Positions 2,201 to 48,767 of a stretch of 64,000 nucleotides of DNA are shown here, in pieces; the stretch's first letter is position 1, and every line of letters starts with the position of its first letter. The stretch is from Ruditapes philippinarum (Eukaryota). The stretch is taken from the NCBI RefSeq assembly GCF_026571515.1, contig NW_026865120.1, positions 1 to 64,000 of the forward strand, read 5' to 3'. The position numbers were made by a program, and so were the translations under genes. The notes under the pieces are model-generated. The model was not told the origin of the DNA. It was given only the letters and a program-made list of their open reading frames with translations, and searched no databases.

Positions 2201-2265
2201 TCCGTGGGACAGTGGGAACGCGCTCGCTTAGTGAGTGAGAGGGCTCGGTTCGAATCCCAGTCGAG
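2201..2265 (+). repeat. tRNA-like Pol III head (SINE or pseudo-tRNA)
   Basis: A-box-like gtgggacagtgg and B-box ggttcgaatccc, followed by a T-run. No clean cloverleaf. Confidence 0.45.
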
Positions 2266-2839: not shown

Positions 2840-3305
2840 GGAAACCAATAATTTCACAGAAAATGTCTGAAAAGGGGGCATAACACTTTCAATGTTGAGT
2901 TGATTGTTATGAAAATTAAACTTAACGTGTGTTGTTATATAACATACTCGCGTGTAAAATATAAACATAATCATTCAAAATGCTTCAAAAGTTATTCTGC
3001 TTAAACCAATTATTTCACTTAAAAAATCTTAGAAAGGAGCATATATAACTAAAGAGTGGATTCGTTCAAAATCGACCTTGACCGGTGTTTTGATATAACA
3101 TAGATACATACTTGTGAAATCCTTCAAAATTTATTCTACGGAAACAAATAATTTATTTTGCTTAATCGAGGGCCAATTGTCCTTAAAATTTAGCTTATCG
3201 TGACAGAATGAACTACTCGTATGTTATGTTTACAGTTAGATGCGCGCGGACTGACGAACCGACAATACCTATATACGACCCGAAGGCCTATGGGCGTATA
3301 AAAAA
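2840..3305 (+). mobile_element. Non-autonomous Helentron/HINE-like element, 3' part
   Basis: Ends in a hairpin tatacgacccgaaggcctatgggcgtata followed by an A-run. Internal gggggcataac and gaccttgacc motifs are typical of bivalve HINE-like repeats. Confidence 0.5.
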
Positions 3306-3659
3306 CAACAAAATTTCCCTGTTTTAAAAAAAAAATTTTCTTTTTTTCCTCCCTTTTCATTAAAACATTTAAAAATTAAATTATTATATAAAATTTATAA
3401 TAAAAGTGTCACCCCTTCCCCCCCCCCCCGCCTTCTATAATGGGGGGGAAACCAATTTATTTAGAAAATGGGGAATGATTTGGGAAAAATATTTGTCGGG
3501 TTAGTTGATGTTAATGCCCAAAAAACTGAAAAACTGGGAAAAAGGACATACATTTTAAAAAAGTTTTTAATCTAAATGGTGTTTTAACCCTTTTTTAGAA
3601 TTTTCCCCAAGGGTATATTTTTTACTAAAAATTCTTAAAAATTTTTTTAAATATGTTAA

Positions 3660-4250
3660 AAAAAATCTTTTTCCCTCCCCCTAAAAACCATGCAAGCATA
3701 AAACAAATTAAACTAAAAAATTCCCTTTTTCCCCCAAGTAAAATTCCCCTTTTAAAAAAAAACTGAAAAGTCCCTGTATTTTTAGAATGTTAAAAATTTT
3801 CTTTTCCATGGCCTAAAAACCAAAGCCTAAAACAAACTAAAATTAAAAAATACATTTTCCCTAAACGGAAAAAATCCTTTTAAAAAATGCCCAAATGATC
3901 GTCCGTTTTTTTTTAAAAGGGTAAAAGTTTTAAAAAATACTTTACCCTCGGCCTAAAAAAAAAGTATAAAAATAACTAAAAGGGGGGAAAAATTCTTTTT
4001 CCCCCAAACGTAAAATTTCCTATAAAAATGGCCCAAATTCAGGGCCGGGGTTTTTTTAAATAATGTTAAAATATACTTTCCATCCGGCCCAAAAAACCAA
4101 ACATTAAAAAAAACTAAAAGTAAAATACATTTTCCCCAACGTAAATCCCATAAAAATTCCCCTGATCAAACCGGGCTTTTTTAGGTATGTAAAATATCTT
4201 ACCCTCGGCCCCAAAACCAAGATAAAAAAAAAAAGTTTAAAAAATACATT
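3660..4250. repeat. Degraded tandem repeat, about 130-bp unit, about 5 copies
   Basis: The motif ggcc(t)aaaaacc...aaactaaaa...atacattttcc recurs near 3680, 3810, 3950, 4086 and 4207. It lies within the noisy region. Confidence 0.55.
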
Positions 4251-10200: not shown

Positions 10201-11229
10201 GTTTGGGGGGGATTAGGGCGTCAAAAAATAAATTCCCCAGGGGAAAATTTCAGGGGAATTATTTAAATTTTCCCCAATGGTTTCTAAATAAAGGGTTAAA
10301 AAGAATCCCCAATGACAAAAAATGGGAGGGCCCTGGGCGGAAACATTTGTATTGAGTCTAAAAACTTTTGGGCCCATTAACATAACCCTAAAAAGAACCC
10401 CCAAAAGCGTAAAAATTTTTTTTAAGGATTATTTATCATAATAGGACGATTCGTTTTTCGTAAAAAATTTTCCCTTCAATTTTATTTTTGTTTTTATTTT
10501 AAAAGGGAAAATTCAAGTTACAAAATAAAGGGGCAAAATAAATTTTTAAATTTCCCTCGGGGTTTATTAATTTTTTCCTTTTACCTAAAACTTTGTTTTT
10601 TTGTTGTTTTTTTTCAATAGTCTAACGCAAATTTCCAAAACCCTTTTTGGTCCCCCTTTTCCCCGGGGTTTTTAAACCGCCCAAACGGCTTTTCTAGGGT
10701 ACAAAGTTTTAACTGACACGTAGGGTTACAATTTTTAATTTTTTCCGAAAATGTTAATTTCTTACCCCCGGTGTATAAATGTTTAGCCCAAAACGACCCA
10801 AAATGCCCATTATACTAATTTTGAGTCAATTTTTTGAGGTTTAAAAAGCTTTTGAACCCGGGACCTAACCCATTATCCAGCCCTCCCTTTTAAACCTTCA
10901 AACTGACGACTACCCCCAAGAATTTAAAATTTGTTTTTTAAAATTTAATTAAGTGTATCCCAAAAATGATTAAAAATCCCCCCATATATTATTAAGCAAT
11001 TTAAAAATGTAATTGCGTCGTAAAATATTTTGGGAAACATCCCGCATCTAGTAACACTAGCTGTCTAACTTCTAAATCAGCATCTTATCATTTGAAAGTA
11101 GCAAAGAAAGCTTCCGCGTCTATATTCATCGTACCCATCTTTTGATAGAAGGAAAGATATTGCATAAACCAGTATTGCATCAATGTCAAAGTTTCTACAA
11201 AAAATTAATACTTGAATATTAATAAAATT

Positions 11230-12135: not shown

Positions 12136-14481
12136 ATGGCTGTCACAAAAGCATTCTTCCTATTGGGCTTGGTAACGATAGTCAATGGACATGGTCGGCT
12201 GATAGATCCGCCATCCAGGTCATCTGCATTTAGATTTGGCTTCAATACACCACCTAATTTTCTTCTGGACAAGCAACTAAATTGCGGAGGAGTCTGGGTA
12301 AGTTACCGGTCAAACTACCGTTACAAAGCATTATCAATATCATATCATTTATTATACCAACCATTTATTCGTTAAATTTGAGGAAAAAACAAATATTTAC
12401 ATAAAATGAGATGTTATTTGTACAACGTTTATTGGCATGGTTCTTACTAGTATTTACACATCTTGAAATTATGTAGCATGCAGTTTATCACGGTAAAATT
12501 TAAAATCACATTGTTTAAGATCTACGCTAACATAAATCTTCATATATTTATTTATTTGTTTACTGGAGATACATTTCGTTTTGAAGTAGGTTTTTTTTCG
12601 TTTTTTTTTCTTTTTTGTTTCTTTTTTTTTTACTTTTAGGGTGATAATTTGACTGCTTCAAGTAAGCAGTAACATATAAATTAAAAATATGTCGTCTTAT
12701 TCATATGTTTTAAATACACAAAAAGTAATATTCCTACCGATCATAATACATATAATCTATTCTTCAGGCAGGGCATGTATTATTACACATCTTACAGCCA
12801 AACGGAATGTTATCCAGCCTCAGCAGTTACATTTTATACTTGTACTCATATCTATGTTCATTTTATTCCGAATAAAGATATATTACTAACATGGTTAAAA
12901 CATTCGGTTTGGGTTCTTTTAAGAATCAGTGGCAGGTAAATCATGGTCGTTGTGGTGTATGCGGTGACCCGTACCAGGGTCCACGTAAAAACGAAGCAGG
13001 TGGGGTATACGCTACAGGAACAATTGTTCATACATATAAAGAGGGTACGCAGATAAATGTTGTAATTGGTAAGTGACTGTCTTATTCATGCAGTATGACA
13101 TTATCAATTGCAGAAAAAAGTATATGCATCTCTTGAACGGAACAGAATGCGAATGTAGGAACTATATCGATTTTAATGTTAATAGAGGATAGGTAAATAT
13201 GAGCTTGAAAAACGTTTATCATTTATCCTATAACTTGCGTAAGAGCATTCCTGTATATTTACATTACAGCAATGACGTTGATACAATGCATTCTTATTAC
13301 AATCACGATTTATTGTAACGGAATTCCGAATAATTTTACAATCTCAACAATATTGATACACTAAATTTATAAACAATTAATTCAAATATAATATTCAACT
13401 TATTTCATTCTGCTGAGTTCCTAGTAAAAGCGTATTATCTTACAGACATAACTGCCCCTCATGGCGGATGGTCCGAGTTTAGAATTTGTCCTAACAACAA
13501 CATTCATAAAGCTGTCACACAAGAGTGTTTTGATCGATATCTACTGGCGACACCTAGCGGAGAAACCAGATATATTCATCAACGTGAAGCAGCTAATATT
13601 ACAATCCCTCTCGTGCTTCCAAAAGGTCTAACTTGCTCGCAATGTGTTCTACAATGGAAATGGAATACTGGTATGTAAACAATTCAAATATCATGTATTT
13701 ATCATATGATTTTATATAATTTATTCGAGTAGTAGTTTAAAATATATATTTTGTGTATCTTAAAGTGACAAACGTTCATCATGTCGCTACTATATATTAC
13801 AAGAATAAAGTGTCGGAGGACCAAAAACCTAAAAACATAAAATTTGAATTTCTTACATAGATCACCTAAGCCTTTTAAAAGAAATATATGTAAAGGATAA
13901 TTTACATATATGTTGAAATTTTTTTAATCGTAATTCATGGTATTCTTAGCCTGATTTTAGTGACATAGGTTAAAAGGATGATTTTTTGGTCATTTTCCAC
14001 AGTTACAATAGTTACAATAATTATTCTAGAAAATATTGTTATCAAATAATCTGAAACATAGCAAACAAGTCTTTGAGCTAGACATACATCTAATGGAACA
14101 ATAATCTCAAAAAAATATTTCAAGTTCTGTCATGTCAAATTCCTTTTAAGCAAACAGTTCAGGCTGTAAAGCAACCGAATGCTTATTCCAGCTATCTGAC
14201 TATTAGAAAATGTTAAGATACTGAAATGCTTTAAACTATTGACAGTTTACTTATTAAATAGATAATAAAACTGTAACATATCTTATTTAGCCCATGATTA
14301 TAACTGTGACACAGTTACCAAAGAATGTTGCAAAGGTTGTGGACCACAGGAGCAATTCTACGGCTGCGCAGATGTCGCAATAATAAAGACATCAAGCGGT
14401 GAAACTTCGTCAACAACGAAAACGACAAATCTTCCTAATGAACCTGTCGGTTTCATTCCTATTGGAAACAATTTCCCTTAA
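12136..14481 (+). CDS. AA15-family lytic polysaccharide monooxygenase (chitin-binding type-4 fold), paralogue 1, 240 aa, secreted
   Basis: Exons 12136-12297, 12924-13068, 13446-13670, 14291-14481 (723 nt, GT-AG, phases 0/1/1). An 18-aa signal peptide ends TIVNG|H. Motifs: HGRLIDPPSRSS, CGVCGDP, NEAGG, TAPHGGWSEFRIC, CSQCVLQW, GCGPQEQFYGCADV. An S/T-rich tail ends PVGFIPIGNNFP*. Confidence 0.95.
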
Positions 14482-14984
14482 GCCGTCAGCAAGCGATTTC
14501 TATTTCTTGTTCTATGGAATTGAACGTGTTGTTTTGAGGGGAAAAGTTTGAAAACAGTTCAAATCAGTCACTGATTTTGCATGTTTGCTTGGGATTTGAC
14601 GGAAGAGACATGGCATCTGAAATGATGGACATTTAGATCGTTATAGTGAGGCAAAGTTATGTTTACATAGGAAATGTGCACATGAATGTAATTGGTCAAC
14701 AACGTAATAGAGTTTTGGAAGGGACATTTCATTGTACAGTTTTATTTCCATGTATTATTTGACAACTTGTATTGTAAATAAACCTTTGCTCTTTGTTTCT
14801 ACATGTACATTTGTATTTCTTTCAACATTTTGTCTAATGTTAGCTTTTTTATAACATGCGAAAAATGTAATATATTTACAATAAAAGCTTTTTTCTACAC
14901 TGACTTTTGGATGGTATATTTGTAGTTTTTTAAGTTTATTTAAAAACTTGTTTTCTATTAGTAAGATTGATTTTGTCAATTGTT

Positions 14985-15371
14985 TAATAGAAAGAGCATC
15001 GAAACACAAGGCTATCTGATGTTGCTTCTCGAGTATAAATCATATTGTCGAGTGTTTTGATGGTATTTCCTTTTTTTATCATAGACAAAAACAAAAACAC
15101 ATTCCCAGTCGTCACAATATAAAACCCCTGAAAAACGTAACCAATGAACGAGCATCTGAATATCGATCCCTTTCTCTGTCGTCAAAATACTTAAATCCCA
15201 GAAAAAAATATAAGCCAACCAATGTGCATGCTCTATTTCATTTCCAACAGACAATGTGATAACTAGAGTGCAGGTAACTAATACATGCACTCCAGTTAAC
15301 TCACTGCATATAATGTGTATACAATTTATCTCTGACACAATTTGAACACAAGGTCCCCAAACTATGATACA
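14985..15371 (-). repeat. About 380-bp dispersed repeat, inverted copy of 19888-20252
   Basis: The reverse complement aligns through tgtatcatagtttggggacc, gacgacagagaaaggga, tattcagatgctcgttcattggttac and gatgctctttctatta. Confidence 0.8.
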
Positions 15372-18269
15372 ACTTCCAGTTATATAGCCGACGGTACCTG
15401 TACTTGTAACAACATACACAATGTCTTAAAGTAATCATGAAGGAATAATGAAGGATATCAGTGTTTCTAAATAAACTATTAATAAGCATAGGTGTTGTGT
15501 CTTCTTTAATTAAGAAGCGCGACAAACGCTGCAACAAAACAAATATAAAATAAAATAACAAAAACAAAACGCAGCCTTATAATCAGAATGCTTCACTACG
15601 TTTGATTGGTGTAACCAGTATCTAATTATAAATCACTTTGTTTTTTGCAATTGAAATATCTGCAATAATAATATGCACTGCTCGGTTAACTTGTCATAAT
15701 TTTAATAAAATGGTCATAATGTCTTAATTCGTATGTATATTAAATGTCAAAGTTGTCTTGCTACACTATACGATTCCGAAGCAGACATTTGACGAATATC
15801 AGGATACCTGAATACGTGATGGCATTCTAATTCAAACTGAAGACGTGATGGCATTTCAATACAAACTGTTTATAGATAGGTTAAGTGTTCTTAAACAGGG
15901 TATTTTTTGTTGTAGATAATAACCATCCTGACAGGCCTTATACCTCTGTTACCAAGGCCAACATTGCTCCTAAAGAATTTGTTGACGGGACAGATGTGCT
16001 GTTTTGTCGGAAAAAGGTAACAGCCAGTTGTACTGACATATCCGATGAAAGTGTGCAAACAATTCTGACATATCGTGTGGAAACTCTAAAAGTTTTCGTT
16101 TAATGATTACCGCGGAAAAAAAGATCAATGAATAAAATGGGCCCATGGATCCCTGAAACGATACAATGGCTGCAACGTCGTGATATATTTCTAACTAGTT
16201 AAAGTGTGATATACATGTATTTCTTACTATTAAAAGTTGACTGACTAAACGTGTGTCCATATTTTGAGCCAAAGAGAAGAAGTTAGATATGGAGTGAAAC
16301 GATGATAAATTAAATATCTTATTCTAGTTAAAATGATCCTCACAATAATTATTGTTCGTTTCGTCATATTGCATTCGGGCAATAAAAGTACACATTAATT
16401 AAATTTCAATAAAGTGAAATAATATTTAATTTACAACAAGGATCGTCCTTGCAAAGGATGGTGAGGAGTAATGACAGTTGTTTTGGCCTTTGTTTTATAC
16501 TAAATGATCCCCGTATTAACATCGTGCATTTATCTCTATAACATTTTTTAATTCACAAGTCTCAAGAAAATGCTTTCTTGAAAAATCCAAAAGGTTCTCT
16601 AGGCTTTTCATCACAAAGGTACTAAATTAACACATTTTATCATCCTAATGGGCTTGTTAAAATCGTGACAGGATGTGTTTGGGTAAAGAGCGATACAGAA
16701 ATCCAAATGTAATGACAGAACTTCTTTCAGGACCCTCATGTTGCTTTTCGTTGACATTGGTTACCCTTTTTAAGAAAGGTTTGCATAAGGGTAAAGTAAA
16801 CTTATGTATAAAGCAAGGAAATGCTTGCTTGAAATTCAAACTATGTTAAAACATTTTGTTGTTAATCGTTTGATATCACACTCTTGTTCAAACCTTATTA
16901 GATAATGTTTAAGATATGTTTCTGTTACTGTTTTAATATGTGAGCACAAAGTTATGATTTTGTTGATGTCAGTTTTATTTTTGGATGAAATATTTACGAA
17001 ATATTCGAAAAATATCGAAGAAAAGACTATAGAATGATAAACATACAACAAATCAGGGAATGGCGCCTGCAATCTTGAACCGATCTTTAGAAAATATTTG
17101 GAGAAATTGAAAGACGTTCCTGAATATGGAAAGGTAACTGAACAGCTGCTTTATTGTAAAACAACACACACATTCATTGACTTGACTAAATTTGATGTTT
17201 TTTTGTTCCAGATTTTCTTTTCATTTTCTTTCAAGGCTTATATATATGCTATATACTAACCTCACAGAGGATAATAGCCATAGCTTGTCCCACAAAATTT
17301 GTATAATTTATAAAATATTATAGCAAACTTATCTATAAAAAAGTAAATTATTGTTATATTAACCCTGGAGTCAATATCAGATCTGTATGCATGTTTTCTT
17401 TTTTCTCTCAAAAAATCTATAATACATGTATGCATAAAATGTTAATGTTATATTTTTTTCCCGGTGACTTACATTGTAACCTGACGTGACGCCCATTTCA
17501 AAATGGCGACGCCCATACTGACGTCTTTTAAGGTTCGTCTCACAATTAACATTGCATGTTCTAGATAATAATGAAAAAAATGATAATTCTATTTATTTAC
17601 TAATCTTTGTTAAGCTATAATATTTGACTTTTTCTCAGCTAAATTCTAAATAGACGAGTACCTCTGTATAGACAATTTATAGTGCGCGTGAGTGAATGCG
17701 TGCGCGTGTGTGTTTATTGTTTTGAAACACTAGATAAGAGATCACCAATTTTTACATTAAAAGTTCACTAATTTGACCTTTGACAATACAGATATTTTAA
17801 TTTGCGGTACAAGGAAGTTGAAACATCAGAAAGAGTTAGCGTGTACTCCATTATATCAAAACTGTTCAAACGGTATCTAATTCCGTCCCTCTTTTTATCA
17901 CGGAAGTAAGATAGGTCTATCTAGTTCTTTTTCTCTTTGAGCTGTAAATATTTATGCTACTCGCCTTTGAAATAAGCATTCATTGTGTTATTTTAGGCAT
18001 ATTTTGTAATTTTAAACGCAAACATTACAAGCAAGTTTGCTAACCGTCTGAGAGAAGCTCGTGTTTATACTTAAACGTGTTTTGTCGCTTTAGTATGATT
18101 TTCAAAATTTATCAAACATTATAAAAAGGTATTGTGATTCATACAGACACATTCACAGAGAAAAAAGCTAAACCTTAAGTTTAGATCCAGAGAGTTTCTT
18201 AAGATGTATTTTTAAAGCAATTATTTTCATTTTACTTTTTTCGAGATACTCTTTTAGCAGTTTATCTGT

Positions 18270-18400
18270 GGCAACAGGGCCGAGTGATTTGCGCGTCGGC
18301 CTATAATTCAAGGGTTGCTTGCCTGGTGGGTTCAAATCCCGTCAGGGGTAAGCAAATGTTTTTTTTTTTCAACAAAAAAACTTTACACTCATAGCTTAGT
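18270..18400 (+). mobile_element. tRNA-derived SINE (CORE-type), truncated
   Basis: A-box ggccgagtga, B-box gggttcaaatccc, then aaactttacactcatagcttagta, as in the copies at 23.8 and 38.1 kb. Confidence 0.7.
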
Positions 18401-19887
18401 AATAATATCATGTCTTTTATTAAAGACAGATGGCGGGAAAGTGTATAACGTCTGTGTTGTATTGATACAACTGTGTTATAGCCAACAGTTACAGGTGTGC
18501 GTCAATATCTAAAGCTGCGAGTCGGATTGGTTGCTCATTGTAAATCATTTATACTTCAGATTAGACCTCAGGTAGAGTTACGCACACAATCTTGAAGCAA
18601 TGAAAACGTTTTTTTACATTCAAGCAGTTGTCGAATCTTTATTGTTTTCATGGCTTCAACTAAAAAAAATGTGAAGAGTATGCTATTTTTGGCCAGCTGA
18701 CTCTCGGTCAATATATAGGGACATTTTCTACTTCGTTATAATCGGCTTTTAAATTAGCAATGATTATGGATTTACTTTTACACATTTTAATAAAACTTTT
18801 CATTACAGTGAATATGGCGCCTCAACGGAGAGCCTATATTAAGATATAGAAAAATACATATAACTGAATTCTACGTTATACATTTAGCATCATTTATGAC
18901 ATTATTATGAAATGAACTCTTTAGAAGGAACGACATTAAATTTATATAAAGATTTTCATATTTATCTTATCTGTAAGAAGCATTTTTTGTAATGTCGCAA
19001 CTTGCGTGAGATTATATAACGATTGTCCATATGTTTGACTATAAATTATTAGCATTGTTTAAACTATTTATTGACATTTTTAAATATATTTCTATATCTA
19101 TTACAAGTTTGTAACTTAAACGTACAAGCCGACTTTTGTTAAGTTCATGTGGATTAATTAAATCAATGAGGTATTTTTTTATAATTGAATATAGTTATAT
19201 AACTGGAGGCGTAATATCTTCAAAAATCTAAAACGTTTTTGAGCCTTTCCTTTATAATGCGTAAATAACATATTAGTATAACTTGATTCATATTAAAATA
19301 TTTTTTCAAAATATAGGGATCAGTGGAGAGAGTTCTTTTCGAGCCAAGGCCACGTATCAATTGTTTATACTCAGGAGTGTGTTTAGTTTTGCTCAAACTT
19401 TCATCATCACATATTTGTTACAACTTAATATCTTTTTTCTAACTTTGTAACCTTTTTTAAATTATTTTTTATCCGCGAGGCATACACAACGAAACGTAAC
19501 GTTATATGTGACCAATACAAATACTGACGTTAGTAAATTTGATTTCTGTCTTTTTCGTTTCATTTTCTTTTCCTTCTTTATATTTGACATTACTTGTTGA
19601 CTAGTAAAAACATAAATTATAAACCACTTTTTCTATCTACATGTATAGATCAATTTTAGATGTACTGCCTGTAAGGGGTATGTTTTAACTGCTTGCATTA
19701 TTAATACTAACAAAGCTAAATTGTTTTCTTTTAATCTGGACAAAAAATAGCATTAATCATTTTAGAGAAATTCAAAATTAGTATTGATTGAATAATAGTG
19801 AACGGTGTAAACTATGAGTGCCGGCTGATCTTGGTCTGTACTGGTCACACTTGTATGTCTATTGCCGCCAGCGGACTAAAGGTTAAT

Positions 19888-20252
19888 TGTATCATAGTTT
19901 GGGGACCTTTCTGTTGAAAACGTGTCAGAGTTAAATCGCATACATATACATGCACACTGCGTTAACTGGAATGGATGTATTATTTACCAGCACTCCAGAG
20001 CATTGATTGGCTCATTTTGCCTGGGCTTTACTTATTGTGACGACAGAGAAAGGGAAAGCGGCAGAAATATCATATTCAGATGCTCGTTCATTGGTTACTT
20101 TTTTCTGGGGATTTATATTGTGACAACAGGGAACGTGTTGTTATGTTTGACTATGATACCAAAGAGAAAGAACACCAAAACACTCGGCAATCTGATTTAT
20201 ACGCCCCCTCGTACAACTCAGATAGCCTCGTGTTTCGGTGCTCTTTCTATTA
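19888..20252 (+). repeat. About 365-bp dispersed repeat, inverted partner of 14985-15371
   Basis: See the partner copy. It has two internal sub-repeats, each starting with ATTGG. Confidence 0.8.
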
Positions 20253-21198
20253 CATAGAGTGGACATATTTAGGATGACTTATCTGTAATACCTTTGAACT
20301 TGATGAACTGTTTACCGACATTTAAGAGAATGTTATCTTCTTGTCTGTCTATACAGCGGACTCAAACATTTGTAAATGGCTGTCAAAGTGTTGAAATACA
20401 TTAGCTATTTTCCATCCGGGTTTATGTATATGAGGTCATAGCGGAAAGTGAATTGTGCCGTCTTAAATACCGGAATATCTTGGTAACAGTACGATAACAT
20501 GTGTGTCTATAAAATGTACACAATGTACTATCAACTGTTTACAATGTATTTAATTTATTAACATCCTTATTATTCATAAGTTCATTTAGTACGTTTTATT
20601 TTCTTCCATGATTTATATCTGTGATTATAAACCCCATTGTAATGCAATATTTATTCTAAGAAATAGCTAAACATATTTTAAGCAGGAATGTTAAAGGTGT
20701 TATTTATATCATAAGTGATGAAATATACTAAAATTATTTCAAAATCTCTTACAATCACATTGTATTCATGTCTGAAGGGAGACATTTTTATTTTTTTTTA
20801 TAAATAAATGTAAAACTAAATCTCTTTTAATTAACGCGCATGAAATTGATATATAATTTTGTAAGAAAAAAGAAATGTCATCATTCCTTTTGAAAATATT
20901 AAACTTTAAATTTCTGTAGGTTAAGTAATGATATCGCGTCCTTTCAAAATTCTATGCTTTCGGTTAATGTTATTTTGTTTAATTTGAATCAAGATTCAAA
21001 CAAATATGTGTCTGAATTTTATGCTGTCCAATGTATTTTGTATCTTATTAATGACAAAAATAATAAAATGATTTAATGTACTTAAATTACGCTAAAATGA
21101 TATTTTTAAAGTCCCGCCTTTATATTTAATTTTAGGACATTTACAAAAAAATGAATGAAAAAAAAAAGAAATGAAAATTTTGTCTGTGTCTCCCTTTA

Positions 21199-22161
21199 TA
21201 CTGCCCTCACACATACCTCGCGACCTTACTGCGTCCTTACTGCGACCTTGCTACGACCCAGGACGCAGCACAGTCGCCATGGACGCAGCAGGGACGCAGC
21301 GAGGTCGTAGCGAGGAACCCAAGGACGCACAAGGTCGCAGACCGTCGGCGACTATTTTGAACATGCACAAAACAGTCGCAGAAACTCTGCGTTCTTGCTG
21401 AGTCCTGGTTAGGTCGCCGTGGGATCGCAGTGGAGTCGCCATAGTCGCAGCAGCATCGTAGTAAGGACGCAATAAGAACGCAATAGACGTAGTACACTCG
21501 TACTAAGGACGCCGCTGTTTCAACAGACTGTGGACCACTAGAAGACTGTTTGTATGCGTCTCCGCCAGTGGATGAAGCCGCGATTTCTACACACTGTGAA
21601 CCACTACCAAACTGCATATCTGAAGCGGCGACTGGGTCAACTTGTAGCACTTTAGAGACCCTCGCTCTTTTGCCTCGTCCGCCTCTCATCTTTGGAATAA
21701 TATGGATGATTTAACTTAATACTAATTAAATATACGTCTTCACTCGTTGAAGGTCAGACTCAGAATGAAATTTACTGGTAAAAAGTATTGTTTTTATAGA
21801 CGTAGCAAGAACGTAGTAGGGTCGTCGTACAGTCGCAGGACAGTCGCCGGACAAACGCAATAGTCGTCGTAGAGTCGCCGTAAGGACGCAGAGAACATAG
21901 CACAGTCGCAGCTGGGTCGCCGATGATCGCCGTGGGGTCGCCTTGGGGACGCAATACAGTCGCAGTGGAAACGCCATGGACGTAGAAGGGTCGTATTGAG
22001 GACATAGAGAAAACGTACTGAACACAAGACTGCAGAGCCCCGGACCGTCTGCGAGAGAAATTTTGGAAATTTGAAAGAAAACCAACGATTTTCGAAAGAA
22101 AAATGCTATTTTACTAGTTTTCAGGTCGCAGTAAGGTCGTGGTTTATGTGTGAGGGCAGCA
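21199..22161. mobile_element. PIF/Harbinger-type MITE (963 bp, GC-rich)
   Basis: TIRs TACTGCCCTCACACAT...ATGTGTGAGGGCAGCA, extended by cgaccttactgcg / cgcagtaaggtcg. TTA lies on both sides (21196-21198, 22162-22164). The interior is built of gtcgcag/ggacgca repeats and has no transposase. Confidence 0.85.
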
Positions 22162-22630
22162 TTAAAGCCGAACACGTTCCTGGCGCTGTTGGTATAACAG
22201 CTTCCATATCATGTATTGAAAATTTGAAGATAGAAAACGTCATAGCGCCTTTCTGGCCTTTTTAGTACAACCAATGTTGCATTTCACGAACAGAACTTGA
22301 AGTAAGAATCAACGTTTGCAAATATCTTCAATATGTTTATGTGTGTTTTTCAGTCTCTCCCGATGGATCTACCTGTTAAATTAGTAAACCGCCCCGCTTT
22401 TGGAAACCGGCTTTCACTCACGCCTGCTAGGGTACGTGAGGATGACGCACTTTTTCATTATCTCTCATGTACAGTCTCAATCAAACCGAGTCTGCAATTT
22501 TCATGTTATTTTGCTGTGATTAATGCTTCCGAGGGATAACTTTGTTTCCAGATATTTTTCTCTGTTTATTACGTATTATGCATTATGTATAATTTATTTA
22601 TTTGCAGATACTTAAACTGAATGAGAAAAA

Positions 22631-25600
22631 ATGGCATTTTCACTAAGAGGAAAGCCTATCTTCAAACTATCTATGTTCCTAACAACCCTGTTGTCAACTA
22701 CAACCATTGTCAAAGGTCACGGACGCTTGATGGAACCGCCTTCGAGGTCAACTGCTTTTCGATTTGGCTTTGCAACTCCTCATAACTATAATGATAATCA
22801 ACTTAGCTGTGGAGGATATTGGGTAGTTGATATAAAGTATTCGAATTTATGATAAATCTACTGGAAAATTATATTAAGTCCTTTGCAATTATTTAGACCT
22901 TAGTTTAAACTACAATGACGAGTAAAGCATATTGTCATGGCAGTTTATAGTCATGTTATCGTTAAAGGCCCTTTGAGCCCCAAAAGTGCTTAAATTCATA
23001 TTTTTCAAAAGCCTTTTACTCTTGATTTTTTGTTTTCTTTATCAAATAGGGCGTATTGACCAAATAGCAGTCGCCTTTTGCTTCTATGGCATAAAAGTAA
23101 TTATTTAAGTTAAAGTGATTAAGCATTTTGAATGGAAGTAAAAATTCCACTTCGTTTACATTTTGCCATATTTATGACATAAATTTCACTTCAAGGACTT
23201 CTCTGTTCAAATGATAAGCGCGTATCATGCTTCAGTTCCATTCTTATAACATTATAAAAACAATGCTTGCCTTTTTAGGGAAAATTATTAGTATTTATTT
23301 CTGCGGACAAATGTGCCTTTATTTACTCAAAAATACACACATAAAGAAAAGAAACAAATAAGTTTAAACTTATTTTACAAATTAATGCAACCCTATGTTT
23401 AGAATAATGGATCAGAGTTAGTATTTCAATGCTGAATACAATTTAAGCATATATTGATAATAAAATACACAAAGGTATTGTTCTTATTATTTGCAAACAG
23501 AATCAATGGGAACTGAATCAAGGACGCTGTGGTATTTGTGGGGATCCATACCAGGGTCCACGTGAAAACGAGGCTGGCGGGAAATACGCTAAAGGGACAA
23601 TAGTTCGCCATTACAAGGAAGGGCAGAACATAGATGTAGAAATTGGTAATTTATTATACATGTACGATATACAATAAACAGGAGTGTGGATGGTAGCGGG
23701 TTCAAGACGTATGGTCAAATCAAATGATTCTTGCGTTGGTTTACACAAATTTATGTTAGTTAGATTGTGTTGGAAGCAATAAGCATATTGAAACACTATC
23801 AAATCTTTTCCCGGAACCAACAAGTTCTAAGCAATGAGTGTAAAGTTTCTTGTTCAAGGAAACAACGACTTGCCCCTGACAGGGTTTGAACACACGCGGT
23901 CAGCAATCCTTAGATTACTAGTCCGATATGTTAACCGCCTTGCCACGCCGCATTGATTTGCCTTCTGGGGGGGAGTATGATAATTTTCTTTGCGCGGATC
24001 CAAATTCTATAGGCCTATATTTCAATACCCTTCGTTCCAATCGCCCAACTATTAGGTATCTAGCAAAGTTACGTATATATACTGGGATAAAATTAGTTTT
24101 TTTTTTGAGTGACTAATTATGTATTAACACAACAACTGATACTGGTCCGAAAAAGGTAACAGCCTTTTGACATTTTTTTTTAAACATATCTTGATAGATC
24201 TATTATTCTAAGCCTTGTACATTTCAAAAGTTTTGTATTATCAAATAATAAGCTTTTTATAAGAAAGTTAATGGGTTAAGTCTTTAAGACAAATAACAAT
24301 TTAGACATATTTATTATCTTCTTAGAATTGATGGTTGGACACGGTGGATGGTCAGAATTCCGGATATGCCCAAATAATAACATACACAAAGCAGCAACAC
24401 AACAATGCTTAGATAAATACCTTCTAGCGACACCTGGCGGACAAACTAGATTTGAACATGCGCACATGGAGATTGGTCTCCACAAATATGAATTAAAGCT
24501 TCCATCTGGGCTTACGTGCACTCAGTGTGTTCTACAGTGGAGATGGAACACTGGTAGGTGAAGTATATATCGATTCAATCAATCTTAACCAGTACGATAT
24601 CAAATGTAAGTCAGTCACCAATCCAGTGATTACACAGAGACATGTAATTGAAAATCGCAGACAGAAAAAAAGAAAAGTAAATATCCCCAACGCCATTTTG
24701 ATTTTTTATACCTTTACGGTATATATGCTTCAATGAAAAACTCCCAAAGACACCCTCACAGATAGTTCCTCCTTACATAACTTCGTATATAATTTTTCGG
24801 GATAATAAGGTGATATTGGATATTTCCCCTACGTCTCTTATAGGCTTACCTGTCCTTTGGTTAACCCATACAGCCATGTGTTATTCAAAGGTATATCTTC
24901 AAAATCATAGTATCATTATCCTATAATGCAAAACAAATTAAATGTTGTTTTTTTTTTCATTTTAACAAAAGTCATGCTTTAACAAGATAATTGATAAAGA
25001 TATGTTGAACTACATTTAGCGTAAAAGTAACTTTTATGACGCTATTTGGTTTATTGACGTCGTATCTTACGTCATATGACGTATTTACGAGAAATCTCTT
25101 TTTAAGTCCTATGTATTTGAGAGGGGGGAATAGTGTGAAGCGTGTTAGAATTAATGGTATATTATCGCTCATTTGCCTTTACATATGTATATAAAAGTGA
25201 TTTAAAGACACATATCGGAAATCTAAAGATTCACCCTTACATTTTATACAACTGACAGATCTGATTTCGGTACAAAACAATCACTTTTTAAGTTGAAAGA
25301 AAAATAGGCCAGCTGAGTTACGCATTACCTAATGTACGACATAACTTTGCTATATTTGTGATTCTCAAACTTTTATATGTTGTAAAATTTCAGATTCTAA
25401 CAACAATTGCAATTTTGTTACCCACAAGAATTGCTGTAACGGTTGCGGACCTCAAGAACAATTCTACGGTTGTTCAGATGTATCAATCGAACGTGCCACA
25501 AATATCGTACATTACGCGTCACAAACAACGCCACGTGCTCCACCACATCCGTTTCAAGAAAGAGTTACTAGACCAGAGAGACCAATGGGTTTCATACCAA

Positions 25601-25647
25601 TAGATGTAATGGGTCGTTATTTGAAGGAAGCCAAAATAAAAACATAA
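22631..25647 (+). CDS. AA15-family LPMO, paralogue 2, 272 aa, secreted
   Basis: Exons 22631-22822, 23501-23645, 24326-24553, 25394-25647 (819 nt, same phases as paralogue 1). The signal peptide ends TIVKG|H. Motifs: HGRLMEPPSRST, NYNDNQLSCGG, CGICGDP, LMVGHGGWSEFRIC, CTQCVLQW, GCGPQEQFYGCSDV. A P/T/R-rich tail ends PMGFIPIDVMGRYLKEAKIKT*. Confidence 0.95.
23750..23952 (-). mobile_element. tRNA-derived CORE-type SINE in LPMO2 coding intron 2
   Basis: Reverse complement reads gcgtggcaaggcggttaac...gtgttcaaaccc...gtttccttgaacaagaaactttacactcattgcttag...gttggttccggg. Confidence 0.8.
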
Positions 25648-26140
25648 AAAATATCAATTACACATGAATACATAATCATGTTTTACATAGTTAACAAAGT
25701 TTTAAATGAATTTTAGTAAAGTTTGATGCCCTTGATTCTTCTTTTATTTGATCTGACATTTTGCTATTTCAAAATTTCATCCTTTTTGATAATAATTTTA
25801 TATAACATTAAATATTTACAGCTAAAATTAATTATAAAGAAAGGATGTAAAAATCTTTATTTCTGTTTGGAAATACAGGAATTTAGACTGCTTTTGGATT
25901 CATTTTTTCCATTTATATTCTGACTCATTCTTGAATCTATAAACCACAAACGTCTTTATTTCATAGAAATGAGCAGTTTCCTCCTTCACTCTGTTATCAG
26001 CATCTTAAGTATCAATTCTACATTTCCTGTAATATAATTGGCGGAATACACCCGGAATAAAATTTTAAAGATAAATTTTAAATTAATAACAAGACGATAA
26101 TCTTGCTGTCAAACAAAGGTGCGCACGTGAAGTACATTCG

Positions 26141-26208
26141 TATATATATATATAACTGACTCTGCCAAACATTTCATACAGAGATAACTGGACAATCATT
26201 GAAATAAG
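26141..26208 (+). promoter_or_regulatory. Probable TATA box and 5' UTR exon of LPMO3
   Basis: A (TA)n-TATAA tract at 26141-26155, donor aag|gtaggt at 26208/26209, and acceptor tttacag at 27071 before ATG 27099. This is the same layout as LPMO1. Confidence 0.5.
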
Positions 26209-26689
26209 GTAGGTGATTTTTATTGCTCATTCTTTTTAAGTAAAGAAATAAAATGACAATTTCGATCCTGTTAATATCGGTGTTGCATCGGAAATAATAT
26301 TATGCCTCAGAACCGAATAAACTTTAACTTCTTAAAGAACCTGTAACTCAATGTTTATGGTTTTATATAATAAATATAATGCCCAAATGGAAATGTATCA
26401 ATATTGTAAGTTCCAAAAAGCATTAAAGATATTACCGAATTTACGTTTCGTGTTAATAAAGGGTGGTATTTAGAAATTTGTTTTCTAACACAAATATTTC
26501 AATAAGAAATGAATGCAATATATTTTGATGATTAAATATAATGTGTACAAATATTTCAATGTTTGAAAATTGTTTAGAAACTTAATTATATACATATATA
26601 TAATTTCACTAAAGTGTAGTAACTATCTTAATTACAACATACAGAATTTTTAAGCAAGGGCATACATGAATTTTATAAGGTATAATTAA

Positions 26690-26943
26690 TGATATTAGCG
26701 TATGTTAGATGCTTGTAACCTGCAGAAATATCGATAAATGTGAAAAGATTTGTCATCAATTAGCAAAAATGTAAACAAAATAGTATTTTGACTTCAATAT
26801 ATAAGAATAATAATTTCTAAAAAGCAACAGAAGCAAAAGATGCTTCAGGTAGCTGGCCAATGAGAAACTTTCTTGAAACTTTTGAAATACATTAAAATAA
26901 TAAAAAGATTTTGAGAAAAATATAAATCATAATGGGCCTTTAA
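26690..26943 (+). mobile_element. TTAA-flanked MITE, partial copy (same family as 11230-11585)
   Basis: ttagatgcttgtaacctgcag...aaaatgtaaacaaaatagtattttgac...ggccaatga...gggcctttaa is collinear with the copy upstream of LPMO1. Confidence 0.65.
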
Positions 26944-27098
26944 GGAAGGTTGTTATTTTAACAAACAAACTCCATAATATACAAGCAAATCTTAACCTTT
27001 ATAATTATCTTGTGTCTTTGACAGATTCTTGTAAAGTTTTCTTTACTTTCATTCTTTTCGAACATTTACAGATAACTACAAAACTGAAAAAGAAAGAA

Positions 27099-29340
27099 AT
27101 GCAAGGAAATATGTGGATAGTTTCTTCTGTTGTGTTATTGAGTCTGATCAATTTTGTTACGGGGCATGGACGGCTTATAGACCCTCCATCTAGATCTAGT
27201 GCACACAAACATGGATTCCCCTTAATACCAGTAAATACTATGGATCATCAATTGAATTGCGGAGGTTTCTGGGTAAGGCAATTTATCAGGCCGTTATTTA
27301 TCTATTTATTTATTTATTATTTTGAAAAAGGTTATGCGACACTGTCTTTGAATTTATCGGCCATTTCTCTATAAACCGGTGTTATTGACGATAATGACCG
27401 TTCTAGCTCAGTTTCCATCACTTTAGTTAAAACAAAAAGAATAATCATATGTAAATAATAAAGCATCAAATACTACAATTACAGTGTAAAGTAGCAAGTT
27501 TAAAAGTAATTAACGCAGTTGATGTTTTTCCCATTTGTTTCCGCATAGACATGGCTACTATATGAATTATTCAAAATAACATCAATTATGCTTTCAAGTT
27601 AATTTCATGAGAACATATCGTTAAGGTTTGCATAGTGTGACACTTACATTAACATTTGATAATACACTTGCTCTAATATTTCAGAATCAATGGGGAGTTA
27701 ATCAAGGTCGTTGTGGTGTTTGCGGGGATCCATATCAAGGTCCTCGTGAAAACGAGGCTGGCGGGAAATACGCAACAGGAACAATAGTACACACTTATAC
27801 AGAGAATGCGCAGATAATTGTTGAGCTTGGTATGATTGTATTTATAGGTTGATAAATATAACTGTTACTGTATCGTCTTTATTATAATATTAAGCACTGT
27901 AGATTTAATAAGAAGACAGAGCGGAGGTCAGTAGTCTTAATTGCAGATAATTTCGTTAGATTCAAAAGTCAAACTGTATAAAGGTCATGTCACGACTTTC
28001 CAGCCGTACTGATGGCAGGATGGCTTTAGGTATAAAGCTAATTCTTTTTTCAGGCACATGCGTATAACAAGCTAGCTTGATAGTTTCTCAAATGAAATAA
28101 TTAATAGCACAACTAAAGAGCTAGCGGGGAACTAATCCGAAGTCAGCGGCCTTGTTCACAGGACCTCTTACTTTATTAATAAGCATGCCGCAGAAATATT
28201 GGGACAGTTCATTAAATGTGCTCCTCATTTCAGATATAACTGTTGCACATGGTGGATGGTCGGAATTCCGAATTTGTCCCAACAACGACGTACATAAACC
28301 TGTCACGCAACAGTGCTTAGACAAGTTTATTCTAGCGTCACCTAGTGGCGATACCAGATACATACACCAGCGAAAAAGAGGCACATTAAGGATTCCACTT
28401 GTTTTACCACCTGGTCTAACATGCACTCAGTGTGTTTTACAATGGAAATGGAACGCTGGTTAGTAATAATCTCATTATATTCCATATCTAATACAAATCT
28501 TTGTATACTAAAGAAGGGGAGTTGGTTGGATCGATTCGTTTTCCGAAGAACTAATTTTCTTACCTAGTTAATGTAAATGGCATTTTATAAATCTTCAAAT
28601 ATACGTTCTGTCAAGTATGTTAATCTAACAAAAATTACAGAACTATGTAGCGAATTTCAAAGTATACCACTAAAAAAGCGACGGATTCAATCATACCGAT
28701 TGAATTTTTCACCATTTTCTTGCTAAATTTGTCGCCTTGGTTTATGACCGCTTTATATTCAAAACTATAAATTGCAAGTGTTAAGGGTTTAAATCAATCT
28801 CACCATCTCGACTCTTTCCGTCAATAAGTATTTAGTATGGAAGTCAAAATACTACTTTGTTTTCATTTTGCTTTCTTTACGGCACAAAGCTGCATGTTCA
28901 GTGCTAATTTTTTTCAGTCGTAAAACATCTTACGTGCACTTAATGCATTATGAAAACATTATTAAACATTTCTAATTAAAATGTATTTCTGAGGCATTAT
29001 GTGCCTTTAAAAGAAATATGGAAACAAAACATAATCTTATGTATTGTACATTACAGCCAGTAATTTCAACTGCGATCCAATCACCCACAAATGCTGTAAG
29101 GGTTGTGGCCTGCAAGAACAGTTCTACGGCTGCGCTGATATATCTATAATAAAACCATACAGGCCACCAACAATCAAACCATACAACGGACAATGGGCAT
29201 TCAACCATATTACAACTGTGAAATCAGACAGCGCGAAAATTGCATCAAAACCTACCACAGTGAAACAAAATTTCATTCCTCCGTTTAATCGTCAAACTCA
29301 ACCATATGGCTTTATTCCGATCTTCAATCGCCGTGGTTAA
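27099..29340 (+). CDS. AA15-family LPMO, paralogue 3, 275 aa, secreted
   Basis: Exons 27099-27272, 27685-27829, 28234-28458, 29057-29340 (828 nt). The signal peptide ends NFVTG|H. Motifs: HGRLIDPPSRSSAHKHGF, CGVCGDP, ITVAHGGWSEFRIC, CTQCVLQW, GCGLQEQFYGCADI. The tail ends PYGFIPIFNRRG*. AATAAA occurs at about 29387. Confidence 0.95.
28840..29010 (-). mobile_element. TTAA-flanked MITE fragment in LPMO3 last intron
   Basis: gtcaaaatactactttgttttcattttgct...tttctgaggcattatgtgcctttaa matches 62303-62493 and the reverse complement of the 11.3 and 26.7 kb copies. Confidence 0.65.
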
Positions 29341-30890: not shown

Positions 30891-33800
30891 TCATGGTTTC
30901 CACGGCTTCTTTCGAAATAATTGTTTAGGATAGGTTTTTTCTTCTGGAGGATAAAAGTTGTCCATTTCTTGTTCGAAGTTGCGCTGTTGCGAATGTGAAA
31001 TGAGTATTGACCGGTTTGCTTTGGAAAAATGGTTTGCAAGTCCACCGTTCTGAAAACCTACATATATAGGCGACTCCATGGATGTAATACCTCTGTCTAC
31101 TTTATAGTAACTATTGAAGTTGTCCCAAAGGTCAGTCTCTCCTGAATGAACGTCTTTTTCTGGTTGTTTTGATGTAGTGTTATGCAATTTGTTTACTGCA
31201 TTGTCTGTATCTTTGTCATCACCTGGCCATATCTTTACTTTTCCTGAAATGCATAAATTTCTGTTAGAGATTCTGTAGTCTACTTAATTCGCTAGATTAA
31301 TATTTGTTAATCATTATCTAACTCTATCATTTGTCCAACGTATGGCAACATCGAGCCACTTGTTAAAATTGGAATCACAAATATATGGGTAAAGGGGATA
31401 TTTACTGTACGATTGGATACCTTAGTAAAACAAATTATTTAACATTTCTTAACGATTGGGTACTTAAGAAAAATATTTTATCATACATAAGTCATATGTA
31501 TAGCTGTCTGTTATGATACTATGAAACATAGTCTGTGGGATTTAAAGCCCGACAGTCTGTTGAAGGACAGACGAATGGGAGTCCTCGACCTCAGCAATTA
31601 AGAACATAAGTTAAAGATAAATATGAGAATAAACACAGAGAGAAAGGCACTGCATAGAGTACGCAGTTAAACGCCAAAGAAAGGCAAACATAGTAAAATA
31701 GAAGGCCCTAGACACCTCAAAGTGGTATACATAAGAGCTTGGATACAGATCCGTGTCATAGATGAGAGAAACGGATAACTATTATAACATAATTATTATA
31801 CACTAGGACTGGTCTCAGCTAAGGAAAATTATGGACAAAAAGAAAATGGAAAAGATCATGTAAAAATGGCATATGACTTCAAAAGTCATCATAAGTCAAG
31901 TAATTGAAGTAGGAAGTGAAATGATTAAATATGAAAAGGAAGAATGGCGCTCAATGAACGCATCCCCAACACACGTTTACCGGCAGCCCAGCAGGACAAT
32001 TATTATGTCGACCAAAAAAGCACCTGTGATACCTTTGATAGGGCAATCATGTCATTTAAAGTATGATGAAACGTGGTCATCATATATAACATAACTAGAC
32101 TAAAACTATTGCAAAGCCGAGTAAAAAAAAACATAGCTCCTATGATTTCTATAAAATGAATTTCATGAAAATCTGCTAAGATATTCTACCTTTTTGACAA
32201 AGCCATGTCATCAACACAGTATGAGCATCCAATGTAATAAGTGTAAGCACTACTCCAACGACAACCATAAGAGTGCCCAGTCGCCCTACAAATGAGAAAT
32301 AAAATTTGTCTAACAAAAATGGATAAAAGACTAATTTAGCTATAGACAATAGTTAACATGCGTAAACAGAATCGTAAGAATATTTTTTCTTGCGTCTTAT
32401 ATAATGACAAATGTTACATGTATCAATATACAATGTATAAGAATAGATATAAGAATATACATACACATTTAAACTGTTAAACATTCGACCATTATGGTCT
32501 ACATGTCACCTTAGATAACTTTAAGATAAGCACGTCTACAATATTGTGATATTAATTAAATGTAGAAGATAAAAAATAACAATTTCTATAACGTAAATTT
32601 ATATGCTTATGTTGCATTATCAATTTTAACATGTATATCTGGAGAGAAACGGATATGAAATGTGCTTTTAACCTGTTTTTGTAATTTATCATTCTTACTT
32701 TTGTCAGAGTCGAATATCAATGATAAAGTTGTTTGATTATATTGTCCCTCGGTACTTTCGCAGGAAATAACGAGCACAACGGTGTAGGTACTCCATTGTA
32801 ATATGTCGGATATTAATGGTGTCCTTGTAAGGTACACACTGTAATCTTTAAAATATTGACAATTTTAAAATGCATTACATCCATGTATACAGTAAAAAGG
32901 AGTCTTGTAGAGTGCGGAAATAATATGGTAAAGCACTCTTTTTATTATATAACATGAAAAAAACATATATTTATTAAAAACAGTATGCGGAGTACGGACA
33001 TCGAGACCAGGAGGACCAGGAAAGTGTGTTGTCATTTACGTTGTTATCAATACGACATGTCGACTAATGTTATGATATACAACATTCAGCATATTTAAAA
33101 AAATGATGCAATATGCAAACTCAACTTGGTAATGATTGTCTGATGACTGTTGTCTGTTGTACAAAAAACAAATGTAACTGAAGTTTCGAATTTTCCCTTC
33201 CCTCAAACAATTATGATAAATATAATTTAAGCATGGTAACAATAGAGAAAAACGGACTTGTCACAAGAACACCCGAAACTGAAAAATTGAAAATGTTGCA
33301 GACTTTGATTGAGCCAGTCAATGGACGGTAGTAGTAGCAGCAAAATACCCACATATCCCCTAACACTAGCTTCAGCAGAATTTAACATCTAAACAAACAT
33401 AAACATAGTGTCCTTTAATTTGAGTAATAACGGAACCTTAAATATGACAAGTACATAACATACCACGAACAGCGATATATGGCCTCCAAGAAAAGCTTAC
33501 ATATAAAAAACAAGGGGCATTACTTAATAAAATGGAATTATGAAAGGCAGATCAGAGGTTATGAAGATAAGTTTGGCCCACGTTTCTTCTGATTAAACAT
33601 TCCCTCAATATATCTGAAACAAGTTTCATAATGATTTGTTATACCTTAAATTAAGATGCACTAAACAAAGCAATTTGTTACCTGTTTTACTTCTATTTCT
33701 TATATCAAAGGTCGCATGGTCTGGAAATGTAGAATGTACGTAACAGTCAACATTGTCTACATCACGTTGCCGTGATATTGTGAAGTCATAAACGTGTCCT

Positions 33801-48760: not shown

Positions 48761-48767
48761 AGTTATC

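What the first reader, a model, noticed from the sequence alone, without database searches (positions are those of the whole stretch)
14440..29340. Conserved C-terminal P-x-G-F-I-P-I motif after unrelated low-complexity linkers
Seen: the tails after the catalytic domain differ in length and composition (S/T-rich, P/T/R-rich, K/T/P-rich). All three still end in the same motif: EPVGFIPIG, RPMGFIPID, QPYGFIPIF. LPMO3 also has a partial duplicate, NFIPPFNR before GFIPIFNR. No CBM14 or TM anchor is present. Inference: a short linear motif under selection that replaces a carbohydrate-binding module, e.g. for matrix docking, oligomerisation or sorting. I do not recognise it from any described LPMO.
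Basis: partly seen in the sequence, partly recalled or inferred. Interest (0 to 1): 0.75.

Follow-up and report, generated by a model that had tools for sequence, protein, structure and literature searches.

The report
Ancient linker motif in mollusc LPMOs
Three neighbouring clam genes for secreted copper enzymes that likely cut chitin carry the same seven-residue motif in a floppy tail, kept in mussel, scallop and sea-slug relatives, where it likely serves as a docking tag for a partner protein not yet identified.

Summary
Three tandem, spliced AA15 LPMO genes of the Manila clam (gene 3 = LOC132727913) carry P-x-G-F-I-P-I near the end of Cys-free, low-complexity tails. The motif codons are synonymously diverged (4 of 18 pairwise codons identical), so this is selection on protein, not gene conversion. 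The wider consensus P-x-[GSA]-[FY]-x-P-[ILV] occurs in 27 of 66 related AA15s that have a double-Cys loop and in 0 of 155 others. Carriers include Mercenaria, Mactra, Mya, Dreissena and Mytilus; the core without the first Pro also occurs in scallops and a sea slug. It does not replace a binding module: in most relatives it lies in the linker before a 6-Cys module, which these clam genes lack. Two scallops keep three separate GFLPIN copies unchanged in a 47%-identical linker. Two AlphaFold2 models leave the motif undocked. Most likely it is a short linear motif that binds a partner in trans, sometimes in several copies, and positions the enzyme in a secreted matrix. Rivals are a metalloproteinase-type cleavage site, self-association, docking on its own domain, or a released peptide. 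No partner was identified, and my paper searches found no description. Tail motifs in fungal LPMOs (X283) are the known kind.

The parts
12136..14481 (+). AA15 LPMO gene 1, 240 aa; exons 12136-12297, 12924-13068, 13446-13670, 14291-14481
   Evidence: GT-AG model translates without stops; joints of introns 2 and 3 seen in contigs of runs X1/X4; LPMO_10 in exon 3
14443..14463 (+). motif copy PVGFIPI in gene 1 tail
22631..25647 (+). AA15 LPMO gene 2, 272 aa; exons 22631-22822, 23501-23645, 24326-24553, 25394-25647
   Evidence: all three joints seen in X1 and X4; groups with Mercenaria P0005 and Mactra P0015, 100/94
25582..25602 (+). motif copy PMGFIPI in gene 2 tail
27099..29340 (+). AA15 LPMO gene 3, 275 aa, identical to P0001 (named LOC132727913, Ruditapes philippinarum, by its source); exons 27099-27272, 27685-27829, 28234-28458, 29057-29340
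   Evidence: all three joints seen in X1; model matches TdAA15A 5MSZ
29269..29292 (+). upstream related element NFIPPFNR in gene 3 tail, aligned with PFRPVFTR of Mercenaria P0002
29302..29322 (+). motif copy PYGFIPI in gene 3 tail

Best explanation
The three genes encode AA15 LPMOs, predicted to be secreted, whose predicted-disordered tails carry a conserved short linear motif, P-x-[GSA]-F-x-P-[ILV], that likely binds a separate folded partner protein and so likely tethers the enzyme in a secreted, probably chitin-containing matrix. Shown: the genes, their splicing, the motif, its protein-level conservation, its position between the catalytic domain and a 6-Cys module in relatives, its retention where that module is absent, and three separately conserved copies in two scallops. 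Inferred: the Phe, Pro and Ile side chains insert into a hydrophobic groove of a partner in trans; several copies give avidity; the variable S/T/P-rich linker is a leash; motif and 6-Cys module are two independent targeting devices, and venerid clams kept only the motif. The partner, the tissue and the substrate are not identified.
For: Synonymous divergence in the motif codons and no DNA similarity over them. Full pattern in 27 of 66 double-Cys-loop AA15s (shuffled mean about 0.14) against 0 of 155 others; core pattern 34 of 66 against 3 of 155. Present in three supported clades: heteroconch 100/93, pteriomorph 95/91, gastropod 94/96. Spacing is free on both sides, about 20-265 residues after the catalytic domain and 6-38 before the module for the nearest copy, which suits a flexible ligand rather than a folded extension. 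Mizuhopecten P0020 and Argopecten P0292 keep three GFLPIN copies, 18 of 18 residues identical, in a linker with 127 of 273 identical columns; one catalytic domain would not need three. AlphaFold2 leaves the motif under or near pLDDT 50 in P0001 (block 261-270 mean 45) and in P0033, where both folded domains are mostly above 90. Matrix context comes from papers only: a Tridacna shell-matrix PF03067 protein, Tcr_684209, has a full match (PISFLPL) in its linker and Arg in place of His1 (PMC8217771 supplement); two chitin-binding type-4 genes are high in an oyster mantle cell type (bioRxiv 10.64898/2026.05.15.723513, passage; which genes is unknown).
Against: No partner is identified and no binding was measured. 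Tissue of expression of these three genes is unknown: X1 and X4 carry no library record, and raw-read runs X21 and X23 show almost no exon depth. 32 of 66 double-Cys-loop proteins lack even the core pattern, and oyster relatives have a different RPQLxP word, so it is dispensable in many members. The Tridacna match is one protein, noticed after the fact, from a different AA15 subgroup; the second Tridacna PF03067 protein shows no match in the sequence given. The AlphaFold2 negatives rest on alignments of 61-62 rows. The motif also fits the metalloproteinase P-X-X-hydrophobic consensus. The patterns were set after seeing the data, two of the searches were seeded with motif-bearing queries, and rows are related, so the counts overstate independence.
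Confidence: 0.45

Rival explanations
1. The motif is a conserved protease site: a metalloproteinase cuts P-x-[GSA]|F and releases the catalytic domain from its C-terminal anchor, or matures the protein.
For: The canonical MMP motif is proline-X-X-hydrophobic with small residues at P1 (PMC12775482, passages). Among 47 F/Y-x-P-[ILV] contexts, 28 have Pro at -3 and 41 have G, S or A at -1. The site lies between catalytic domain and module in relatives.
Against: The strictest positions are on the prime side (F, then Pro at P3', then I/L/V), whereas the same paper reports small residues at P3' for gelatinases and M/L/I at P1' for the best MMP13 substrates. In the clam genes a cut would remove only 9-18 residues. 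Scallop copies mostly lack the P3 Pro yet are fully conserved.
Confidence: 0.18
2. The motif is a homotypic sticker: copies bind one another and oligomerise or condense the enzymes in secretory granules or matrix.
For: A hydrophobic island in polar spacers, repeated and conserved in scallops, two copies in P0171. Fungal LPMO tails drive dimerisation (PMC10990093, passages; bioRxiv 10.1101/2025.11.04.686606, abstract).
Against: The fungal dimers use a tail cysteine, and these tails have none. Near-invariant F, P and I at fixed spacing is more specific than stickers usually need (inference). Self-association was not modelled here.
Confidence: 0.15
3. The motif folds back on its own catalytic domain as a stabilising plug or an autoinhibitory cap over the copper site.
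For: It is confined to AA15 proteins in my searches: proteins with the related C-x-C-ending module lacked it (0 of 70). It co-occurs with the double-Cys loop, and oyster relatives changed both.
Against: Two AlphaFold2 predictions leave it undocked. Three conserved copies per catalytic domain in scallops. Many double-Cys-loop enzymes have short tails with no motif. The co-occurrence can be shared ancestry.
Confidence: 0.12
4. The tail end is released as a short bioactive peptide starting F-I-P-I, for example an antimicrobial one.
For: Frog temporins and brevinin-1 peptides begin FLP[ILV] (PMC11851847, passages). The tail end of a fungal AA14 inhibits fungal spores (abstract). Venerid tails end 5-14 residues after the motif, several with Arg and a terminal Gly.
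Against: In most relatives the motif is internal and followed by non-cationic spacer and a Cys module. The residues after it are not conserved and there are no shared processing sites.
Confidence: 0.06
5. The motif is a neutral relic or a product of recent gene conversion.
For: The three genes are tandem paralogues, and many relatives lack the motif.
Against: Synonymous divergence, no DNA similarity, conservation across families and classes.
Confidence: 0.02

Closest known systems
AA15 LPMOs (TdAA15A, PDB 5MSZ; PMC5823890)
   Same: Signal peptide then His1, second brace His, same fold (Foldseek E 6e-21, TM 0.90 by target; phmmer E 1e-41).
   Different: Axial Tyr184 is Phe in all three; Ala89 is Val in genes 2 and 3; 12 Cys rather than the ten reported as conserved; a disordered tail with the motif, which TdAA15A lacks.
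Fungal AA9 tail motif X283 (consensus RXHAR; PMC8615602, PMC10990093)
   Same: A short conserved motif in a disordered C-terminal tail of a secreted LPMO, kept across paralogues.
   Different: X283 is cationic and preceded by a Cys that forms a disulfide dimer. This motif is hydrophobic and Pro-rich, has no Cys, is internal in most carriers, can be repeated, and is in an animal AA15.
Insect LPMO15-1 with 6-Cys repeats C-X15-C-X3-C-X6-9-C-X4-C-X1-C (PMC9156745)
   Same: Mollusc relatives carry a similar 6-Cys module after the linker.
   Different: The motif-bearing relatives have a variant ending C-x3-C; the window's genes have no module, and no remnant was found in the window. The passages I read describe no linker motif.
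MMP substrate consensus P-X-X|hydrophobic (PMC12775482)
   Same: Pro at -3 and a small residue at -1 before a hydrophobic residue.
   Different: Near-invariant Phe, then Pro at P3' and I/L/V at P4'; no cleavage shown.

Membership tests
AA15 LPMO | Signal peptide exposing N-terminal His1 | tested here: met
   18-, 29- and 22-residue hydrophobic leaders ending G|HGRL; by hydropathy only, no signal-peptide predictor was run
AA15 LPMO | Second histidine of the brace (His91 of TdAA15A) | tested here: met
   TAPH, MVGH, TVAH align with His91
AA15 LPMO | AA15 fold and sequence family | tested here: met
   Gene 3 model: best PDB match 5MSZ, TM 0.90 by target; LPMO_10 E 1.9e-15
AA15 LPMO | Second-shell Ala89 and axial Tyr184 as in TdAA15A | tested here: inconclusive
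   Ala kept in gene 1, Val in genes 2 and 3; Phe at the axial site in all three, as in most mollusc relatives; effect on activity unknown
AA15 LPMO | Copper-dependent oxidative cleavage of chitin or cellulose | not testable with these tools
   needs recombinant enzyme
LPMO with disordered C-terminal region (dCTR) | Tail of 30 or more residues, no known module, predicted disordered | tested here: met
   32, 52, 63 aa; no Pfam domain in the gene 3 tail; pLDDT 45-62 over residues 221-275 of gene 3; genes 1 and 2 not folded
X283-type tail motif | RXHAR consensus preceded by a dimerising Cys | tested here: not met
   no RXHAR and no Cys in the tails
AA15 with CBM14, transmembrane anchor or 6-Cys module | Such a module after the catalytic domain | tested here: not met
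Short linear motif | Short conserved island in a disordered region, recurring in copies | tested here: met
Short linear motif | A defined binding partner or modifying enzyme | not testable with these tools
   no partner known
MMP cleavage site | Pro at P3, small P1, hydrophobic P1', small P3' | tested here: inconclusive
   P3 Pro 28 of 47, small P1 41 of 47, but P3' is Pro (consensus); cleavage itself not testable

The most novel reading that the evidence does not exclude
P-x-[GSA]-F-x-P-[ILV] is a mollusc-wide extracellular address tag, old enough to be shared by bivalves and gastropods, that is read by an unknown receptor or scaffold and loads LPMOs, including catalytically dead ones such as the Tridacna shell protein, into shell or periostracum chitin matrix. 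It would be a protein-based targeting route for an animal LPMO that works without any carbohydrate-binding module.
Probability: 0.2. Interest if true: 0.7.

Novelty: new variant of a known kind. Interest (0 to 1): 0.45.

Why it matters
The role of mollusc AA15 LPMOs is open, and about a third of AA15s carry disordered tails of unknown use (PMC8615602). The functional tail motifs I found in print are fungal. This gives a seven-residue handle, conserved across bivalve orders and a gastropod, that can be made as a peptide, mutated and used as bait. Finding its partner would show where and on what these enzymes act, for example in shell chitin, and whether animals target LPMOs by protein docking as well as by carbohydrate-binding modules.

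Tried and rejected
Complex prediction of the gene 3 catalytic domain (23-213) with its tail (241-275): no verdict, score 0.00, alignments not used, controls not folded; it counts neither way. No whole genome is held for this window, so other paralogues in the genome and coding DNA of orthologues could not be examined, and no dN/dS was computed. ESM Atlas searches with the motif-plus-module of P0015 and the P0020 linker gave no usable hit. Earlier findings: none in three look-ups. Paper searches for GFIPI/GFLPI/GFVPI/GFIPV (21 papers, 19 listed, none on LPMOs by title or abstract start), for six LOC ids (0 papers) and for AA15/mollusc terms showed no description of the motif. Supplements of PMC5854119 and PMC8902148 had no hit for six terms each; bioRxiv supplements were not read and could name the oyster mantle genes. 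P0225 and P0257, which matched the motif part of the profile many times, are near-perfect tandem repeats and were set aside as probable spurious ORFs. The first tree finished only as a quick tree; the careful tree used 54 group members and 22 random others of 149 catalytic domains and does not resolve whether the three motif-bearing clades form one group. Rejected readings: replacement of a CBM; a recent duplicate in gene 3; cytosolic motifs such as LIR or IAP ligands (recalled; the proteins are predicted secreted); an N-terminal ER-export tripeptide (recalled; the motif is internal).
Full report
Observation. The window holds three tandem four-exon genes on the + strand at 12136-14481, 22631-25647 and 27099-29340. 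With GT-AG borders they translate without stops to 240, 272 and 275 residues, with catalytic domains 64-69% identical. Gene 3 is identical to P0001, which its source names LOC132727913 of Ruditapes philippinarum. Contigs of runs X1 and X4 (two studies; RNA is the tool's guess) show 8 of the 9 introns as joints among the 15 rows displayed; raw-read runs X21 and X23 show almost no exon depth. P-x-GFIPI occurs exactly three times in the six frames of the window, once per tail, against 0.003 expected. The tails are 32, 52 and 63 residues, without Cys or a hydrophobic stretch, and 5, 14 and 5 residues follow the motif.

The enzymes. All three have a hydrophobic leader, His1 and the second brace His. 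The gene 3 model matches TdAA15A (5MSZ) at E 6e-21 and TM 0.90, and phmmer gives E 1e-41. Against the residues named in PMC5823890 (passages), Tyr184 is Phe in all three and Ala89 is Val in genes 2 and 3. They are AA15 members by sequence and fold. Activity on chitin is inferred from the family.

Selection, not conversion. The six fixed motif codons are identical in 2, 1 and 1 of 6 positions in the three pairs, against 44-49% for identical residues of the catalytic domain. blastn between the gene regions finds exon matches that end with the catalytic domain and none over the motif. Five of the six closest Mercenaria proteins returned carry it (two as AF[IV]PI); P0006 has a different annotated end. 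In the careful tree gene 2 groups with Mercenaria P0005 and Mactra P0015 (100/94), and genes 1 and 3 with the other Mercenaria proteins (99/85). The duplication behind genes 2 and 1/3 therefore probably predates the venerid-mactrid split, though P0015 has a fairly long branch.

How wide it reaches. Searches gave 291 proteins. With genes 1 and 2 that makes 293, of which 221 had a recognisable catalytic end and a linker of 20 or more residues; 72 were dropped. Grouped without using the motif, the pattern P-x-[GSA]-[FY]-x-P-[ILV] is in 27 of 66 proteins with a double-Cys loop before the conserved GCG, and in 0 of 155 without one visible. The core [GSA][FY][ILVQH]P[ILV] is in 34 of 66 and 3 of 155; shuffled means are under 0.5 per group. 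Named carriers of the full pattern are Ruditapes, Mercenaria, Mactra, Mya, Dreissena and Mytilus; the core alone is in Mizuhopecten, Argopecten and the sea slug Plakobranchus. Carriers fall in three supported clades whose joint monophyly is unresolved. That bivalve orders and gastropods split in the early Palaeozoic is recalled. Caveats: the patterns were set after seeing the data, searches were seeded with motif-bearing queries, and rows are related.

It does not replace a module. In 25 of 45 double-Cys-loop proteins with a 6-Cys module ending C-x3-C, the core lies in the linker before the module. This includes P0015 and the unnamed last-exon fragment P0230, which has gene 2's loop, the motif and the module. 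The module resembles the 6-Cys repeat of insect LPMO15-1 (PMC9156745, passages), which ends C-x-C. The window has no remnant of it. The simplest reading is that the module was lost in venerids, perhaps more than once, while the motif stayed. That also argues that the module is not the motif's partner. Gene 3's NFIPPFNR aligns with PFRPVFTR in Mercenaria P0002, 13 residues upstream of the main motif, so venerid tails probably carry an older two-part element.

How it likely works. Spacing to both folded domains is free. AlphaFold2 gave confident catalytic domains but left the motif at low confidence in P0001 (block mean 45) and in Mytilus P0033 (inside 213-233, under 50); with 61-62 aligned rows this is weak evidence. 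The strongest clue is in scallops: Mizuhopecten P0020 and Argopecten P0292 keep three separate GFLPIN copies, 18 of 18 residues identical, in a linker with 127 of 273 identical columns, while a fourth, weaker copy is not kept. Several conserved copies per catalytic domain suit binding in trans with avidity, repeated cleavage, or self-association better than one fold-back site. I put binding to a separate partner first (0.45). A metalloproteinase site is second (0.18): it fits P-X-X-hydrophobic with a small P1 (PMC12775482, passages; 28 and 41 of 47 contexts), but not the fixed prime side or its retention 9-18 residues from the end. Self-association (0.15), cis docking (0.12) and a released peptide (0.06) follow.

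Where it may act. This rests on papers and is thin. Two PF03067 proteins were found in Tridacna crocea shell matrix (PMC8217771, passages and part 3 of the supplement). One, Tcr_684209, has Arg in place of His1 and a full match, PISFLPL, in its linker; its sequence cell was cut short and it belongs to another AA15 subgroup. The other shows no match. LPMO_10 is listed among oyster shell-matrix domains (PMC11464482, passage), two chitin-binding type-4 genes mark an oyster mantle cell type (bioRxiv 10.64898/2026.05.15.723513, passage), and shipworm AA15s are low in the gut (PMC8561940, passage). None of these identifies the window's genes or their orthologues.

Against what is known. Disordered tails are common in LPMOs (32% of AA15), and the one tail motif named in PMC8615602 (passages) is the fungal AA9 X283. 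X283 is cationic and works with a dimerising Cys (PMC10990093, passages). A fungal AA14 tail binds copper and is antifungal (bioRxiv 10.1101/2025.11.04.686606, abstract). The clam motif shares only the kind, not the sequence or chemistry. Ten paper searches showed no description of it; the library lacks most subscription papers and CAZy's internal module list was not available. PMC5840672 and bioRxiv 10.1101/2022.04.18.488701 (passages) added nothing; PMC11851847 (passages) gave the frog peptide resemblance.

Verdict. A real, old, protein-level motif in the disordered linker of one group of mollusc AA15 LPMOs, apparently undescribed, with no partner yet. New variant of a known kind; interest 0.45.

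Noticed in passing
window 23645-25394 (gene 2): Run X4 has a GT..AG joint that skips exon 3 (depth 380, against 972 and 1157 for the normal joints). The exon is 228 nt, so the skip is in frame; it removes the second brace His but keeps the tail motif.
   Followed up: partly
window 26206-27070: A GT..AG joint in X4 indicates a non-coding first exon upstream of gene 3.
   Followed up: no
exon 3 of all three genes (e.g. 28246-28270): After the second His the sequence is GGWSEFR, where most relatives have xG[YW]FEFR; genes 2 and 3 also have Val at the Ala89 site. The change is shared with Mercenaria, Mactra and Mya relatives.
   Followed up: partly
oyster relatives P0056, P0057, P0065, P0100, P0128, P0129, P0131, P0136: They lack the double-Cys loop and carry a conserved RPQ[LV][IP]x word in the linker instead of the motif.
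   Followed up: no
P0060, P0121-P0123, P0229, P0242: Relatives in the same heteroconch clade or with the same module repeat a different word, GIGAP or similar, in the linker.
   Followed up: no
Tridacna Tcr_684209 (PMC8217771 supplement): Shell-matrix LPMO-like protein with Arg in place of His1 and a full motif match in its linker.
   Followed up: partly
window 1-11000: Strongly enriched in homopolymer runs (13.4 against 1.8 G/C runs per kb); looks like uncorrected long-read sequence.
   Followed up: partly
window 32600-36000, - strand: Short frames that resemble cadherin-repeat exons by eye; Pfam found nothing in five of them.
   Followed up: partly
window 48280-50850 (-) and 52700-55830 (both strands): Broken retroelement-like frames: a weak CCCH finger (E 0.003) and a weak RVT_1 hit at 54700-55026 (E 0.0015); the rest is by eye.
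   Followed up: partly
window 23120-23183 and 28825-28888: A 64-bp element, 78% identical, shared by gene 2 intron 1 and gene 3 intron 3; reads run off it into unlike sequence, so probably a dispersed repeat.
   Followed up: no
window 19880-20260 and 21200-22560: High-depth repeats between genes 1 and 2, the second GC-rich.
   Followed up: no
P0225, P0257: Near-perfect tandem-repeat ORFs with 10 and 16 copies of a motif-like word; probably spurious translations of satellite DNA.
   Followed up: partly
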